Positions 14,705 to 24,578 of a DNA stretch of 44,740 bases are shown piece after piece. Made by a program: the position numbers and the translations under genes. The DNA lies in the IMG/VR virus record IMGVR_UViG_3300009169_000014, positions 1 through 44,740 of that record; one strand, 5' to 3'. The notes beneath the pieces are model-generated. The model worked only from the letters and a program-made list of their open reading frames with translations, was not told where the DNA came from and did no database searches. The stretch is from a virus. Lineage: Duplodnaviria > Heunggongvirae > Uroviricota > Caudoviricetes. Each line of letters starts with the position of its first letter. The stretch's first letter is position 1.

Positions 14705-14932
14705 GTGATTCTTTTCGACCCGCCCGTCGCGTCGTGGTCCTTTGCTGAGGGACGCAGTATCGATGAGCTGTGGCAGGAGCTTACTCAAGCCTCCCATCAC
14801 CTGCTCTTCACCAACGCGGAAGTTCCGTTCGACGAAGACATGCAGAACCGGCTGCGGAAACGCATTCTCGGGGTCCTCTTCAACTGGACCGAGCAGAAGT
14901 GGCTGACGATCCCCGACAGCCCTTCTCTTTAG
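14705..14932 (+). CDS. hypothetical protein (75 aa, GTG start)
   Basis: GC3 ~70%; converges on stop of leftward late operon. Confidence 0.4.
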   Translation: MILFDPPVASWSFAEGRSIDELWQELTQASHHLLFTNAEVPFDEDMQNRLRKRILGVLFNWTEQKWLTIPDSPSL

Positions 14933-16101
14933 CGTCGCTCGTCTTCGTCGGGCTGCGTCGCCTTGTTGAGCGCGTACAACCCTCCCCCGGCCAACAGCAA
15001 CCGACCAAGGTTGCCGTTGTTCTCGGGGGAGGCCGCGGGCGGCGGCACGTCGGGCAGCGGCTTCGTCTTGAGGCGGTTGTAGACGCCCTCGGCGAAGTCG
15101 GTCACCTGTCCTGCGCCCGGAAGGCTGACAGGCCCGTGACCGTGTTCAGCGGCCCACTGATTGACCCGATTGTGCATGTCGCCGTACTCTTTGTTCGCTG
15201 CGAGACCGATGTTGCGTGGGTCGGTGGTTGCGGGAGAGAGCCCAAGTTCCATCAGGTGCTTCTGCCACCCGGGTAGCTCTTTGCCTCGAGCCCCTTGTGC
15301 GAGTTCATTTGCCAGGAAGGCTTTCCCCGTGTCGCTGTGGCCGACAGACTCGCGAATCTTGTTGATGGCGACGTGACCAGCGATGCTGGGATCCACCAGC
15401 GCCGCGGGGACTCCCATGGCGGTTGGGATGGCCCGCTGCCACAGGGGGAGATCCTTGAACTCCGTTCCCGCCGCCGCTGTGGGCAGCATGCGATGGAACC
15501 AGCCCGCTGGCTTCTTTCCAGAGGTCTCAAGCGCTGCCGGGATGGCCCCCGCGATAGGCGCCTTGGACATGTGCTTCGACTCGCCGATGATGTTCGACGC
15601 GTGGTGAAGGTAAGCTTCCCGCTGCCCGGCGGGCATCCCAGCGATCTGTTTTGAGATAGCCTGCCCCGTGTGGTAGGGCGCCAAGTACTCCGCCCCGAGT
15701 CCTCGGCTGATGAGGCGCTGGAGCACCGGGTGCATCGTCTTGTTCTCAAGGCCGTGCGTGATGCCCGACGCCATTTGGCGCTGGGAAAGCCCCGGCGCCC
15801 ACCGACGCAGACCTTTTTGAATGAGGTTTCCACCGACGTGTGAAACGGCGCCACCAATGGCCGCCTTCCCGAGCCATGGGAGCACCGCCTTCGCCCCAAG
15901 GCCCAACGCCCCGACGGTAAGCGGATCGAAAGCTCTCTTTTCCCGCATGGAGGGGATGGTGAGGTTCTTGGTTCCGTTCTTCCGCGCCGACTCGAGCCAG
16001 TCCTGCGCCCACGTCGGCGGAGGACGTGGCGTACCGTGAGCAAGCCCAAAGGCGCTCAACGCGTCGTCTTCACCGGCGAGCTTACTGTAGTACTCGTTCA
16101 T
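14929..16101 (-). CDS. late protein (390 aa) with N-terminal YSKLAGEDDALSAFGL motif and Gly/Ala/Pro-rich regions
   Basis: long ORF, last gene of leftward operon; N-terminal motif shared with 6 other late proteins. Confidence 0.6.
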   Translation of the reverse strand: MNEYYSKLAGEDDALSAFGLAHGTPRPPPTWAQDWLESARKNGTKNLTIPSMREKRAFDPLTVGALGLGAKAVLPWLGKAAIGGAVSHVGGNLIQKGLRRWAPGLSQRQMASGITHGLENKTMHPVLQRLISRGLGAEYLAPYHTGQAISKQIAGMPAGQREAYLHHASNIIGESKHMSKAPIAGAIPAALETSGKKPAGWFHRMLPTAAAGTEFKDLPLWQRAIPTAMGVPAALVDPSIAGHVAINKIRESVGHSDTGKAFLANELAQGARGKELPGWQKHLMELGLSPATTDPRNIGLAANKEYGDMHNRVNQWAAEHGHGPVSLPGAGQVTDFAEGVYNRLKTKPLPDVPPPAASPENNGNLGRLLLAGGGLYALNKATQPDEDERR

Positions 16102-17360
16102 GCGTCACCGTGCCCCCGCGATACTGCAAGCGGAGAAGCCTCGTTCGCTGTTTGCGTAGTATGCCGTCGGATCGGGAACCGTGAGCGCTCATTCTCTGCG
16201 CCCACGTATGCCTGACGTCCTTCTTCTCTCCGTCGGCCTTCCGTCGCATTGTGGTACACCGACCCCAGCCCAGCCCCACCAAGGCCCGCCAGGAGCGCGC
16301 CGCCTAGCCCGCTCTTCGGCGCGAACTTGGCCGCTCCCGCCGCAGCGAGAGCAGCGCCAATTGCCGGATGAAGAAGGCTACCGCGCTCAGCTTCTGCGTC
16401 CATGACAGACTCAGGGTCGAAGCCTTGGTCGAGGTACTCAAAGCCACGCTCCATGGTTCCGCGAGGAACCCACTTGCTCATGCCGGGAAGGCGCTCCTGC
16501 TGATCCTTGACCGAGATGCCCAGACCGCCCATCCCAGGGATTCCGATGCTCCCGCCGAAGTCGATGGCGAGCTTGAAGCGGTCGAGGGAGCCCTTCTTGA
16601 TGCCCATCTCTCGCTGGAACATCGCCAAGTGCTCAGGGTCGAGCCCGTGCGCTGGAGGAGTAGGAGGCACTGCCGCAGGGGGCGTCGCTGCCCGCACTGC
16701 CGCGGCACGCTGGTCTACTGTAGGACCTGGAGCCCAATTCGCGTTAGGGTGGCGCAGCATCTCTTCGCGGTACTGGTGGATCTTTGCAGGCTCCCCACCG
16801 GGGTCATTCTTCGGAATGTATTCCCGCCGCTTCATCTTGGCCATGCGCTCTCCAAGATCTTGACGGGCCTGGCGCGTCTCCGCCCACGACTTAGGGCCTC
16901 GAGGACCTGTAGGCGCCGCCGCTCCCGGAGGAAGAGCCGGTGTCGCCGCTCCCGGAGGAACAGCGGGAGCTGCTGCCGCAGGCGCAGGCGCTCCACCTAC
17001 TGGCTTGCTCGCGGGGGAGTTCAACCACTGCTTGAGCTGCCCCTTCCCCTGCTCAAAAGCAGCGCGCCCGATGTCTTGCATCGTGTGCCCGCCGACAATC
17101 GGAACGCCCGTGGCTGCTGCCGCCGCTGGAGCCGCCGCTGCCGCGGGAGCGGCTTTCCCCGGACCGGAAACCGCTGACTGAAGCCCAAGGGCTCCGAGAC
17201 CTCCCAGCATGGCGCCGCGAGCCCCTTCACCCTCAGGGGCCATCACCGCGCCAGCCAGAGCGCCCAGGGCTGGCATCACAGCCTTCCCCCAGGCTTCTTT
17301 GGTAAGCCCGAGTTCCAGTACCGCGTCCAGGCTGCCCAGTTTGTAGGCGTCGTGCTCCAT
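16098..17360 (-). CDS. late protein (420 aa) with N-terminal AYKLGSLDAVLELGL motif and Ala/Pro-rich low-complexity linker
   Basis: ATGA-type overlap with downstream gene; coherent with operon. Confidence 0.6.
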   Translation of the reverse strand: MEHDAYKLGSLDAVLELGLTKEAWGKAVMPALGALAGAVMAPEGEGARGAMLGGLGALGLQSAVSGPGKAAPAAAAAPAAAAATGVPIVGGHTMQDIGRAAFEQGKGQLKQWLNSPASKPVGGAPAPAAAAPAVPPGAATPALPPGAAAPTGPRGPKSWAETRQARQDLGERMAKMKRREYIPKNDPGGEPAKIHQYREEMLRHPNANWAPGPTVDQRAAAVRAATPPAAVPPTPPAHGLDPEHLAMFQREMGIKKGSLDRFKLAIDFGGSIGIPGMGGLGISVKDQQERLPGMSKWVPRGTMERGFEYLDQGFDPESVMDAEAERGSLLHPAIGAALAAAGAAKFAPKSGLGGALLAGLGGAGLGSVYHNATEGRRREEGRQAYVGAENERSRFPIRRHTTQTANEASPLAVSRGHGDA

Positions 17361-17376
17361 GGCAGAAGTATAGGCG

Positions 17377-23296: not shown

Positions 23297-23305
23297 CGAT
23301 GTCTC

Positions 23306-23575
23306 CTAGTGCTTCTTCATGAACTCGGTACCGATCAACAAACCAAGACCGGCCAGATCTGAAAGGTGTTTGGTCTTTTCCAGGGCGGGAGAGTCTTCTT
23401 CGCTGCTCAGCATTGAGTGTGCAACCGGTGCGGCGATGAGCCCAAGGCCTGCAACATTGAGGTTCCGCTTGAGGTGGTCCGGCGAGAGCAGTTGGCGCAC
23501 GAGGGTGTCCGCAACGCCGCTGGCGTACTTGTTCAGCGCGTCCTGGGCACCTTGAGCGTACGCCATGCGAAACAT
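23306..23575 (-). CDS. small membrane protein (89 aa, two hydrophobic segments) with N-terminal MAYAQGAQDALNKY motif; holin-like topology
   Basis: hydrophobic stretches VAGLGLIAAPVAHSML and LAGLGLLIGTEFM. Confidence 0.5.
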   Translation of the reverse strand: MFRMAYAQGAQDALNKYASGVADTLVRQLLSPDHLKRNLNVAGLGLIAAPVAHSMLSSEEDSPALEKTKHLSDLAGLGLLIGTEFMKKH

Positions 23576-23576
23576 G

Positions 23577-24578
23577 TTACCCCACCGTCGAGACGATGTG
23601 CTGAATCTGCTGCTCGGTCAACCCCAGGTACTCAGAGGCCTGCTTTACTGAGTAACCCTTCTGCGACAACGCTACCACCGCCCCAGCGACCTTCGCCATG
23701 TCGATGGGCGAGAAGTCCGTCTGGGTCTGGATGTTCACCGGACGGCCGAAAGTGTTGTTCTCGGCGCCCTTGATGAGGTCGTCGATGATGGAGCGCATAT
23801 CGGACGAGGACTTCACTTGGGCTTTTTGCCCTTTTCCGATTTCAATGTCCGCGCTTCGATCAGCGCCTGCTGGACTCTTCGCGGCCCTTTGTCCGAACAG
23901 GTTGGCATTGGCCCGGCCCGCCGCGTACGTCTGATGGCTTGCGGGCATTTCCGCCATGGAGCCTCCGGAACGTAAAGCCGCCAGCCCTTTGGGGATACCT
24001 GCCAGCTTCTGAATCAACTGAAGCTGCGCCTCCTTCTCGTCGTCCTTCTTGTCCTTCTTTTCCTTCGTGCCTTCGTAGTGCCGCTGAGCGTGCTCACCGC
24101 GCTCAGACTCCGCCTTGCGGTGGTGCTTGATCCCTGCCTTCGTTCCCTTGTAGGCGCCGACCAGGTTTCCGATTCCGCCGCCCGCCGCAGCGCCAATGCC
24201 CCCGAGACCCGTCACCAGCGGCGCGAGCATCTCAGGGTCGATGAAGAACTTCTTGGGGCCGAGGCCGCCCCAGGAACGCTTGCGCCCCACAGACCCCGCG
24301 AGGCCCGCCAATCCGCCGAGAGCGCCACCACCAACGGCGCCTCCGACCGTGCCGAGAATCGACCCCAGGAGGTTGCCCGCGCCTGCGTGGAGGCCGCGGG
24401 ACATTGACTCGTTGGTGTCGCGCCCTTCACCCTCTGCCCCGGCGGCGATGCCTGCCGCCAGAGGGCCGGAGAACGGAATCGGAAGGAACTTGGCCGCGGT
24501 CCCGATAGCGGGGGCGTACCCGTAGTCTTCACCGTCCCCAGCCAACTTGTGGATGAGGTTGTAGGTGGCCTTGTCCAT
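23577..24578 (-). CDS. Gly-rich protein (333 aa) with basic middle and C-terminal HTH-like segment (GYSVKQASEYLGLTEQQIQHIV)
   Basis: GGxxGG repeats; KKDKKDDEKE patch; candidate short tape-measure-like or internal protein. Confidence 0.5.
   Translation of the reverse strand: MDKATYNLIHKLAGDGEDYGYAPAIGTAAKFLPIPFSGPLAAGIAAGAEGEGRDTNESMSRGLHAGAGNLLGSILGTVGGAVGGGALGGLAGLAGSVGRKRSWGGLGPKKFFIDPEMLAPLVTGLGGIGAAAGGGIGNLVGAYKGTKAGIKHHRKAESERGEHAQRHYEGTKEKKDKKDDEKEAQLQLIQKLAGIPKGLAALRSGGSMAEMPASHQTYAAGRANANLFGQRAAKSPAGADRSADIEIGKGQKAQVKSSSDMRSIIDDLIKGAENNTFGRPVNIQTQTDFSPIDMAKVAGAVVALSQKGYSVKQASEYLGLTEQQIQHIVSTVG

What the first reader, a model, noticed from the sequence alone, without database searches (positions are those of the whole stretch)
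14929..24578. The same N-terminal AY-x-x-G-x-x-(D/A)-A-L-x-x-F motif heads unrelated late proteins
Beyond the tandem array, the 420-aa protein starts MEHDAYKLGSLDAVLELGL, the 390-aa protein MNEYYSKLAGEDDALSAFGL, and the 89-aa membrane protein MFRMAYAQGAQDALNKY. Seven proteins of very different size share an N-terminal signature. That pattern is consistent with a virion-targeting or ejection-protein signal, by analogy with capsid-targeting sequences and protease-cleaved propeptides.
Basis: partly seen in the sequence, partly recalled or inferred. Interest (0 to 1): 0.7.

Follow-up and report, generated by a model that had tools for sequence, protein, structure and literature searches.

The report
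Shared N-terminal helix tag on phage proteins
A family of uncultured ~190-kb phages puts the same ~17-residue N-terminal helix (A-Y-x-x-G-x-x-[D/A]-A-h-x-K-[F/Y]) on a dozen or more otherwise unrelated late proteins; it most likely docks them to one common partner in the virus particle, but this has not been shown.

Summary
All seven window proteins carry the motif. In 64 related loci it recurs almost always within 3 residues of a start codon: in the 61 loci not used for training, 50 hits of at least 8 bits fall on the gene strand, none on the other strand, and 0-1 in shuffles. It heads at least 12 protein families with no detectable similarity beyond residue 24.

Gly9 and Ala13 are invariant in a 56-sequence alignment. 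The conserved columns lie on one face of a predicted helix, with small residues at its centre. No Pfam, PHROG or PDB match covers it, and I found it only in this clade.

The carriers are clade-specific additions to a conserved neck and contractile-tail module; the cultured distant relative Salmonella phage Arash has none there. Just beyond the window they also flank RNA polymerase genes near the head genes. Most are basic and either disordered or glycine-zipper-rich.

A head maturation protease exists, but no shared Glu-type cleavage site follows the motif, and in one carrier the motif sits behind a DUF5661 domain.

Best reading (about 0.4): an uncleaved docking helix that recruits accessory, probably ejected, proteins into the virion. 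This resembles the T4 capsid targeting sequence in function, but the motif is not a member of that family.

The parts
29636..30118 (-). Protein A (160 aa): DUF5661 domain (res 25-66), then the motif helix (res 67-83, KMAYLMGRRDAFTKFGG), then a disordered basic tail. The motif is encoded at 29861-29920, with an in-frame ATG at 29920.
   Evidence: Pfam DUF5661 1.9e-10. AF2: the DUF5661 part has pLDDT ~90 and its last helix runs on into the motif (H57-81); the tail has pLDDT <50. Stand-alone 93-97-aa orthologues begin MNxxAY.
29308..29631 (-). Protein B (107 aa): MAYHQGTRAALEKF, then a P/G/A/T-rich tail. Motif at 29572-29631.
   Evidence: Motif profile 21.7-22.7 bits. The ATG lies 4 nt after the stop of A.
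28931..29311 (-). Protein C (126 aa): MNKLAYRSGMAAAMAVF, then an S/T/A/G-rich tail. Motif at 29243-29311.
   Evidence: 22-23 bits. Its start overlaps the stop of B (ATGA).
28650..28934 (-). Protein D (94 aa, GTG start): (M)NKLAYQSGIRAAVAAFKL, with a conserved DNGRRxYG tail motif. Motif at 28866-28934.
   Evidence: 22.8-25.6 bits; 87-aa orthologues in 6 further loci plus a 260-aa relative in L017. Its start overlaps the stop of C (GTGA).
23306..23575 (-). Protein E (89 aa), encoded between the sheath-like and tube-like genes: MFRMAYAQGAQDALNKY, then two AGLGL(I/L) hydrophobic helices. Motif at 23507-23575.
   Evidence: 49 homologues, with G9 invariant. AF2 gives three helices, H3-29, H32-56 and H63-84, at pLDDT 68.
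16098..17360 (-). Protein F (420 aa): MEHDAYKLGSLDAVLELGL, then glycine-zipper hydrophobic segments and A/P-rich stretches; A-P-E-G-E is conserved at about res 41-45. Motif at 17292-17360.
   Evidence: 15.4-15.9 bits; orthologues in L001, L002, L003, L013 and L047 keep the motif. Composition.
14929..16101 (-). Protein G (390 aa): MNEYYSKLAGEDDALSAFGL, then GTPRPPPTW. Motif columns 1-23 are residues 2-24, at 16030-16098; only the part from the Gly onward matches.
   Evidence: 12-16 bits. The G-family member P0056 has the canonical DAYKLG form. PHROG 26650 (unknown function) hits res 233-301.
24582..27101 (-). Context: 839-aa tail-sheath-like protein.
   Evidence: Weak PHROG tail sheath hit (0.0017). 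32% identity to Arash gp236, annotated 'structural protein', in a syntenic sheath-tube-hub-PAAR block.
22541..23296 (-). Context: 251-aa, very conserved protein in the tail-tube position. It was the query that retrieved the relatives.
   Evidence: 81% identity among four genomes; 61 metagenome loci. The tube role is inferred from synteny with Arash gp237; there is no family hit.
20934..22535 (-). Context: central spike or hub protein. Other gene callers start it at MNKNPRLP, giving 510 aa.
   Evidence: Pfam T4 gp5 C-terminal trimerisation domain 3e-4 and Gp5_C repeat 0.0087, both below the Pfam cut-offs.
30115..30609 (-). Context: 164-aa protein just upstream of the array. It is the counterpart of Arash gp233 and is likely the head-tail adaptor.
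   Evidence: Synteny and N-terminal similarity to Arash gp233 (DVRDFLRD). The adaptor role is my inference; there is no family hit.
43369..44740 (-). Context: C-terminal part of a 651-665-aa protein whose N-terminal part, outside the window, resembles a head maturation protease.
   Evidence: Full-length orthologue L089:9386-11341 hits PHROG 18299 'head maturation protease' at 6.5e-9.

Best explanation
The motif is a short N-terminal helix. One conserved face (A5, G9, [D/A]12, A13, K16, flanked by Y6 and F/Y17) docks onto a single common partner. This recruits a changing set of accessory proteins into the virion during assembly, probably for release into the host with the DNA. The carriers are small basic disordered proteins, glycine-zipper proteins and a DUF5661 protein. 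The helix is joined to each variable body by a Gly/Pro-rich linker and is probably not removed by the head protease.

Shown: the motif exists; it is under protein-level selection; it sits at N-termini; it heads unrelated families; it is confined to late structural regions; it is clade-specific.

Inferred: that it is a docking element, that the partner is a virion component, and that the carriers are packaged and ejected.
For: (1) Same motif, unrelated bodies. 79 carriers form at least 12 BLASTP-unlinked clusters beyond residue 24. G9 and A13 are invariant across 56 sequences.
(2) Position. Nearly all hits start -3 to +2 residues from a start codon, with 50, 0 and 0-1 hits on the gene strand, the opposite strand and in shuffles.
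(3) One-sided conservation. The informative columns 5, 6, 9, 12, 13, 16 and 17 span 20-160 degrees on a helical wheel, and mean residue volume at columns 5, 9, 12 and 13 is only 64-101 cubic angstroms. Hydrophobic moment is low (0.25) and mean hydropathy is about 0. This fits a protein-protein packing face rather than a membrane anchor or a signal peptide. AF2 predicts a helix in both E and A.
(4) Location. Every window hit lies in the late minus-strand structural region and none in the early region. In relatives a second group of carriers flanks the RNA polymerase beta-prime gene upstream of a 1027-aa possible portal protein, the protease and a probable capsid gene; these roles other than the protease are inferred from position.
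(5) Accessory nature. Arash keeps the adaptor/gp234/gp235/sheath/tube/hub/PAAR order with no motif gene (best score 2 bits). Array copy number varies from 1 to 4.
(6) Company. In L058 the array slot holds an InPase + DUF5661 protein. Elsewhere DUF5661 is fused to ART-PolyVal and to domains with HExxH motifs. Such domains are predicted to travel in virions (PMC5512222).
(7) Precedent. T4 internal proteins share only a capsid targeting sequence (PMC3012670). SPN3US gp53 and gp54 share an identical 15-residue N-terminus (PMC5694885).
Against: There is no direct evidence that any carrier is in a particle: the phages are uncultured, there is no proteome, and F and G have no homologue in 50,697 phage records.

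No partner was identified.

Unlike T4 and phiKZ-type signals, there is no shared Glu cleavage site.

Most window carriers sit among neck and tail genes, not head genes.

The motif in protein A is internal unless translation starts at the internal ATG.

The polyvalent-protein link is guilt by association.
Confidence: 0.4

Rival explanations
1. The logic is the same but the address differs. The helix loads its carriers into the contractile tail (tube lumen, baseplate or spike region) rather than the head, as N-terminal packaging signals load cargo into extracellular contractile injection systems.
For: In the window the carriers lie next to the sheath-like, tube-like and spike genes and at the end of the late operon. 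E, and in L058 a 549-aa carrier, lie exactly between the sheath and tube genes. F, G and E have glycine-zipper segments that would suit membrane insertion on ejection. In L045 an AAA ATPase gene directly follows two carriers. The eCIS cargo-loading literature exists.
Against: Further carriers flank RNA polymerase genes in the head-proximal region. At least 11 carriers per genome, several of 200-550 aa, would be a lot for a tube lumen. No tape-measure protein was identified. The AAA gene is seen in one distant relative only.
Confidence: 0.15
2. The helices bind each other. The shared small-residue face (A-x3-G-x3-A) lets the carriers form homo- or hetero-oligomeric helical bundles, making one multi-protein complex such as an ejection or membrane complex. 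No separate receptor is involved.
For: Small-x3-small stripes flanked by aromatic residues are classic tight helix-helix packing motifs (established knowledge). Conservation is one-sided. Several carriers have further glycine-zipper segments. Translationally coupled tandem genes suggest co-expression.
Against: Self-association does not explain why the element is almost always at the N-terminus, or why it is attached to long disordered tails with family-specific conserved motifs. No coiled-coil or repeat pattern extends beyond 17 residues.
Confidence: 0.15
3. The carriers are not virion components. The helix binds a host or non-structural phage factor, or a membrane surface, in the infected cell, for example in lysis timing, superinfection exclusion or anti-defence. 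The genes simply ride in late operons.
For: The genes are accessory and variable. In L045, carriers follow peptidoglycan-binding, endolysin-like genes. E, F and G have hydrophobic segments.
Against: Hydrophobic moment (0.25) and mean hydropathy (about 0) are low for a membrane-binding helix. There is no signal-peptide core. The genes are embedded inside tightly packed, translationally coupled structural operons. They also associate with InPase, DUF5661 and RNA polymerase genes.
Confidence: 0.15
4. The motif is only a relic of shared ancestry. One small gene duplicated repeatedly, the tails diverged beyond recognition, and the N-terminus is kept for folding or expression reasons with no common partner.
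For: The array members are clearly tandem paralogues (B and C cluster together). The tails are low-complexity and fast-evolving.
Against: E, F, G and the PPTQVDQF family have quite different architectures. G9 and A13 stay invariant across relatives whose tube-like protein (the locus-retrieval query) is only 54-87% identical to the window's. Conservation is restricted to one helical face. Codons vary, so an mRNA-level constraint is excluded.
Confidence: 0.05

Closest known systems
T4 capsid targeting sequence (CTS) of internal proteins IPI, IPII, IPIII and Alt
   Same: A short N-terminal peptide of 10-20 residues is the only thing shared by an otherwise highly diverse, fast-evolving set of accessory proteins, several encoded in tandem. 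It directs them into the prohead (PMC3012670, PMC5694885). The present genome also encodes a head maturation protease.
   Different: No sequence similarity. The T4 CTS ends in a Glu cleavage site and is removed by gp21. Here there is no shared Glu site, and the motif tolerates an upstream DUF5661 domain. Many carriers lie in the neck and tail gene block. Packaging is untested.
N-terminal propeptides of ejection proteins in phiKZ-like giant phages (for example SPN3US gp53 and gp54, phiKZ gp93)
   Same: These are large phages with a multisubunit RNA polymerase encoded among structural genes. Paralogous ejection proteins have diverged overall but keep an identical N-terminus (MANFVKSKLARESVE in gp53 and gp54), which is thought to target them to the head (PMC5694885).
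   Different: Those propeptides are mostly over 100 residues, carry [S/A]-x-E sites and are cleaved. They are shared by paralogues, not by at least 12 unrelated families. This clade shows no detectable homology to phiKZ-like virion proteins.
N-terminal packaging signals of eCIS (PVC-type) cargo proteins
   Same: Unrelated payloads carry an N-terminal signal that loads them into a contractile, tail-like particle. The payload genes lie at the end of the structural operon, as F and G do (general knowledge; literature located).
   Different: As I recall (not checked here), those signals are about 50 residues, disordered and have no strict consensus. Here the element is a 17-residue helix with invariant residues. 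This is a DNA phage with a head, and further carriers lie near head genes.
Polyvalent and other virion-delivered phage proteins (Iyer et al. 2017, PMC5512222)
   Same: DUF5661 (in protein A) and InPase (in the array slot of L058 and inside the RNA polymerase of L095) keep company with ART-PolyVal and HExxH-motif domains in proteins predicted to be injected with the DNA.
   Different: Most carriers here are small, single-module and non-enzymatic. Polyvalent proteins are not defined by a shared N-terminal tag.

Membership tests
T4-type capsid targeting sequence | A short (10-20 aa) conserved N-terminal peptide on otherwise unrelated proteins | tested here: met
   About 17 conserved residues at the N-terminus of at least 12 unlinked families.
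T4-type capsid targeting sequence | The peptide ends in a prohead-protease site ([L/I]-x-E) and is removed on maturation | tested here: not met
   Only 5 of 79 carriers have [L/I]-x-E in the span from motif column 13 to 15 residues past column 17; the B/C tails have 1.3% Glu. Actual cleavage cannot be tested here.
T4-type capsid targeting sequence | Sequence resemblance to the T4 CTS (MKTYQEFIAE type, from my own knowledge) | tested here: not met
   The consensus x-x-x-h-A-Y-x-x-G-x-x-[DA]-A-h-x-K-[FY] shares nothing with it. This was judged by inspection only.
T4-type capsid targeting sequence | The phage encodes a prohead maturation protease | tested here: met
   PHROG 18299 'head maturation protease' at 6.5e-9 on the full-length orthologue of window ORF 43369-44740.
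T4-type capsid targeting sequence | The peptide is sufficient to package a foreign protein into heads | not testable with these tools
   This needs a cultured clade member and reporter fusions.
phiKZ/SPN3US-type ejection-protein propeptide | [S/A/G]-x-E cleavage motif after the targeting region | tested here: not met
   13 of 79 carriers have such a triplet, at no conserved position. Only the F family has a conserved A-P-E-G-E, about 25 residues after the motif.
phiKZ/SPN3US-type ejection-protein propeptide | A multisubunit RNA polymerase encoded among virion genes (candidate virion RNAP) | tested here: met
   Relatives encode a beta-InPase-beta-prime-N fusion (1604 aa) and a beta-prime-C protein (599 aa) upstream of a 1027-aa possible portal, the protease and a probable capsid gene. 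That the polymerase is packaged is an inference.
eCIS cargo N-terminal packaging signal | Cargo genes lie downstream of a contractile-tail operon and depend on a dedicated AAA+ ATPase | tested here: inconclusive
   F and G end the late operon. An AAA-domain gene follows carriers only in L045. Dependence cannot be tested.
Any catalogued protein family (Pfam, PHROGs, PDB) | A significant profile match covering the motif | tested here: not met
   No Pfam or PHROG hit on the N-termini. The best PDB hits to the motif profile have E 0.38-0.5 and are unrelated.
Sec/Tat signal peptide or membrane-targeting amphipathic helix | A hydrophobic core of 10 or more residues, or a high hydrophobic moment with a basic flank | tested here: not met
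   Mean Kyte-Doolittle hydropathy 0.07 and moment 0.25 per residue over columns 4-20; the conserved face is Ala/Gly.

The most novel reading that the evidence does not exclude
This clade uses a permanent, uncleaved 17-residue helical address tag. The tag plugs at least a dozen unrelated cargo families, including enzymes' partners, disordered basic proteins and membrane-active proteins, into one receptor site in the particle. That would be a modular cargo-loading system distinct from the cleaved T4 and phiKZ signals, and it could in principle be reused to load foreign proteins.
Probability: 0.25. Interest if true: 0.7.

Novelty: new variant of a known kind. Interest (0 to 1): 0.5.

Why it matters
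If the helix is an incorporation tag, reading N-termini alone would give a list of candidate packaged and ejected proteins for a whole clade of large uncultured phages. These are the proteins that meet the host first. The motif would also be a second, mechanistically different example, uncleaved and helix-based, of the principle known from T4. A short portable tag of this kind could be used to load cargo into phage particles. It also shows that such signals can be found by comparative genomics without proteomics.

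Tried and rejected
- Exhaustive profile search of 1.84 billion representatives with the seven window N-termini: only self-hits (C, G and an A orthologue) plus two spurious tandem-repeat translations. The motif is too short for database-wide detection.
- Word-indexed search with a 56-sequence motif alignment: two hits, both short G-family forms. Two earlier attempts failed on parameter limits.
- DNA pattern for M-x3-A-Y-x2-G-x2-[DEA]-A-x2-K-[FY] across IMG/VR: 20 hits. About eight are in this clade and sit at ORF starts. Nearly all the rest lie inside longer reading frames in contigs of other GC content and look like chance. 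There is therefore no evidence for the motif outside the clade.
- PDB sequence searches with the E family, the motif profile, the sheath-like protein and the tube-like protein: nothing.
- Foldseek with the model of A: only uncharacterised phage proteins that match the DUF5661 part.
- tblastn of F and G against 50,697 phage records: no match.
- GTDB genome scan with the tube-like protein: no prophage, so the host is unknown.
- Literature searches for DUF5661 and for phage Arash: nothing.
- Rejected, an mRNA or translation-initiation constraint: codons vary.
- Rejected, a signal peptide or membrane anchor: hydropathy is too low.
- Rejected, a conserved protease site.
- Rejected, DUF5661 as a regular partner of the motif: outside this clade DUF5661 is not followed by the motif.
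- The 333-aa protein (23577-24578, MDKATYNLIHKLAG) is not a carrier. It has a different 'LIxKLAG' N-terminus and scored below every reporting threshold with the motif profiles.

Full report
WHAT IS THERE

The window is a 44.7-kb piece of a large phage genome. It has no near match among 50,697 deposited phages. Its 839-aa sheath-like protein finds three IMG/VR contigs of 168-190 kb at 73-80% identity. The only cultured relatives are very distant: Salmonella phage Arash and some Vibrio phages.

Late genes run on the minus strand from about 44.7 kb down to 14.9 kb.
- A, 30118-29636
- B, 29631-29308
- C, 29311-28931
- D, 28934-28650
- E, 23575-23306
- F, 17360-16098
- G, 16101-14929

IS IT MORE THAN CHANCE?

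The window alone gives only part of the answer. A profile built from the tandem-array copies ranks E as the best non-training hit, but at 7.7 bits (E 0.17). F scores 1.8 bits and G is not found.

The decisive evidence is comparative. I used the very conserved tube-like protein (alignment A2) to fetch 61 metagenome loci, in addition to the three viral contigs. A profile of 21 examples was then run against the six-frame translation of all loci.
- In the 61 loci not used for training it gave 50 hits of at least 8 bits on the gene strand, none on the opposite strand, and 0-1 in shuffled sequence.
- Nearly all hits begin -3 to +2 residues from a start codon.
- The 79 carriers fall into at least 12 clusters with no BLASTP similarity (E 1e-3) beyond residue 24.
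- The clusters include the E family, the A-tail family (GGASAAGPDGAS...SGSPVATT), the P/G/A/S/T-rich B/C family, the D family (DNGRRAYG), F and G. More distant relatives add further families such as 'PPTQVDQFVA'.

The consensus is x-x-x-h-A-Y-x-x-G-x-x-[D/A]-A-h-x-K-[F/Y]-[A/G/K]-[L/G/A]. G9 and A13 are invariant in a 56-sequence cross-family alignment. Among 49 E homologues G9 is invariant, and Y6, A13, K16 and A18 are kept in at least 90%.

G in the window matches only from the Gly onward. A G-family member elsewhere reads MLHDAYKLGAEKALETFGVHGTPKPPPTW, which ties G to the motif. Codons at the invariant Gly differ among the window copies, and the copies share little DNA identity, so the constraint is on the protein.

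ANATOMY

AlphaFold2 puts the motif in a helix in both models, at moderate confidence. In E the helix is H3-29 (mean pLDDT 68). In A it is H57-81, where the last helix of the confidently modelled DUF5661 domain runs straight into the motif and the tail is disordered.

On a helical wheel the informative columns (5, 6, 9, 12, 13, 16, 17) all lie within 20-160 degrees. The centre of that face is made of small residues (mean volume 64-101 cubic angstroms), flanked by Tyr6 and Phe/Tyr17. The opposite face is variable. Hydrophobic moment is 0.25 per residue and mean hydropathy is 0.07. This looks like a tight helix-packing interface of the A-x3-G-x3-A type. It does not look like a membrane anchor or a signal peptide.

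After the motif most proteins have a Gly/Pro-rich stretch.

The bodies are basic (pI 9.4-10.8, except E at 6.9) and rich in G, A, P, S and T. Some look disordered (A tail, B, C, D). Others carry glycine-zipper hydrophobic segments (E, F, G).

Within the array, the starts of C and D overlap the preceding stop codons (ATGA, GTGA), which suggests translational coupling.

CONTEXT

Few neighbours have family hits.
- The 533-aa protein has weak matches, below the Pfam cut-offs, to the T4 gp5 C-terminal domains.
- The 839-aa protein has a weak tail-sheath PHROG hit.
- The ORF that runs off the right end of the window is the C-terminal part of a 651-665-aa protein. Its N-terminal part resembles a head maturation protease (PHROG 6.5e-9).

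Arash keeps the same order, and most of these proteins are annotated 'structural protein': an adaptor-like gp233, then gp234, gp235, sheath gp236, tube gp237, hub gp238 and PAAR gp239. It has no motif gene there. Nothing lies between gp233 and gp234, nothing lies between sheath and tube, and the best profile score is 2 bits. The carriers are therefore clade-specific additions to a conserved neck and tail module. Array copy number varies from 1 to 4 among relatives.

I also walked beyond the window in related contigs. This revealed a second group of carriers around RNA polymerase genes, upstream of a 1027-aa possible portal protein and the protease:
- a 1604-aa fusion of RNAP beta, an inserted InPase domain and the N-terminal part of beta-prime;
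- a ferritin-like protein;
- three small motif-headed ORFs (MEPFLKQAYEEGQRAAAEEL, MMNLAYQEGKARAEEDFGL, MISDLAYKSGASAAWGTF);
- the beta-prime C-terminal subunit;
- another carrier of 149-154 aa.

In the distant relative L058 the array slot holds a 767-aa InPase + DUF5661 protein. DUF5661, the domain in front of the motif in A, is elsewhere fused to ART-PolyVal and to domains with HExxH motifs. Iyer et al. (PMC5512222) argue that such InPase and ART domains belong to proteins packaged in virions and injected with the DNA.

MECHANISM

The best-supported reading is that the helix is a shared docking element, which brings a changing set of accessory proteins to one partner during particle assembly. 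This is the logic of the T4 capsid targeting sequence. [quoted passage not shown] Similarly, SPN3US gp53 and gp54 share an identical 15-residue N-terminus (PMC5694885).

The cleaved-propeptide part of the analogy is not supported. Only 13 of 79 carriers have [S/A/G]-x-E and 5 of 79 have [L/I]-x-E near the end of the motif, at no conserved position. The B/C tails are almost free of Glu.

In about ten members, including the window's A, the motif follows DUF5661 in frame. About 25 orthologues are stand-alone ORFs starting MNxxAY. So either the tag works internally or A is also made from the internal ATG.

I cannot tell whether the address is the head interior, as the RNA polymerase, InPase and protease context suggests, or the tail, as the sheath, tube and spike context suggests. 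I therefore keep the tail-cargo version as a separate rival. The other rivals are mutual bundling of the helices, a non-virion partner, and mere shared ancestry. Each is weighed in its own section.

COMPARISON AND NOVELTY

The motif is not in Pfam, PHROGs or the PDB. Neither a strict DNA pattern scan of IMG/VR nor the protein searches found it outside this clade.

It works like a CTS on present evidence, but it fails two defining CTS features: sequence type and a cleavage site. So it is not a member of that family. I rate it a new variant of a known kind.

The claim that it is a real, selected, N-terminal module shared by unrelated proteins is strong. The claim about what it does is moderate to weak (about 0.4) and needs particle proteomics or reporter-fusion tests.

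Noticed in passing
L095:3134-7948 (relative; about 15-20 kb beyond the right end of the window): A single 1604-aa polypeptide combines RNA polymerase beta domains (Rpb2 domains 3 and 6), an inserted polyvalent-type inorganic pyrophosphatase domain (InPase, 8.5e-31) and the N-terminal beta-prime domains (Rpb1 domains 1 and 2). The beta-prime C-terminal part is a separate 599-aa protein. A pyrophosphatase built into a phage multisubunit RNAP, encoded among structural genes, is unusual.
   Followed up: partly
window 43369-44740 (- strand, runs off the end): This is the C-terminal 449 aa of a 651-665-aa protein. Its N-terminal part, outside the window, resembles a head maturation protease. The extension in the window carries glycine-zipper-like segments.
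   Followed up: partly
L058:1624-3927: In a distant relative, the slot occupied by the motif array holds a 767-aa protein with InPase (2.2e-35) and DUF5661 (7.5e-10) domains. It is preceded by a 217-aa motif-headed protein.
   Followed up: partly
window 23577-24578 (- strand): This 333-aa protein lies between the sheath-like gene and E. Its N-terminus is MDKATYNLIHKLAG, and a similar LQLIQKLAG recurs internally. The middle is rich in glycine zippers. The C-terminal end looks weakly like a helix-turn-helix (Pfam HTH_23 0.0023; PHROG small terminase 0.0013). Its length is 142-246 aa in L001-L003 (124 aa in L017).
   Followed up: partly
window 27820-28650 (- strand): This 276-aa protein is the counterpart of Arash gp234. 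It contains a DnaJ-like zinc knuckle, C-V-K-C...C-S-T-C-F-G-T-G.
   Followed up: no
window 19736-20899 (+ strand): Three small genes on the opposite strand interrupt the minus-strand late operon between the spike gene and the 99-aa and 581-aa genes. Other gene callers also place opposite-strand genes here.
   Followed up: no
L003:20774, L013:17167, L017:17488, L047:16632: The G family is only 55-66 aa in several relatives, against 386-390 aa in the window and L002. The gene is either truncated or split there.
   Followed up: no
L001:20815-21837 (opposite strand): The F and G orthologues are inverted relative to the tail genes in this relative, and a metallophosphoesterase-like gene lies between.
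   Followed up: no
L045:16172-20641: The gene order here is: peptidoglycan-binding, endolysin-like genes; then two motif-headed genes; then a 534-aa AAA-domain protein.
   Followed up: no
window 42726-43400 (- strand): This 224-aa protein is probably a scaffold. It has repeated (A)EKTASA units and Q-L-G-Y-E-K / I-Q-G-Y-N-D elements. It lies just downstream of the protease gene and upstream of the probable capsid gene at 40342-41250.
   Followed up: no
P0050, P0051 (database proteins): The top hits of the exhaustive motif search were translated tandem repeats with five chance copies of an AY-x-x-G-x-D-A-A-like unit. They are unrelated to the phage proteins, which shows how short-motif profiles get inflated by repeats.
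   Followed up: yes
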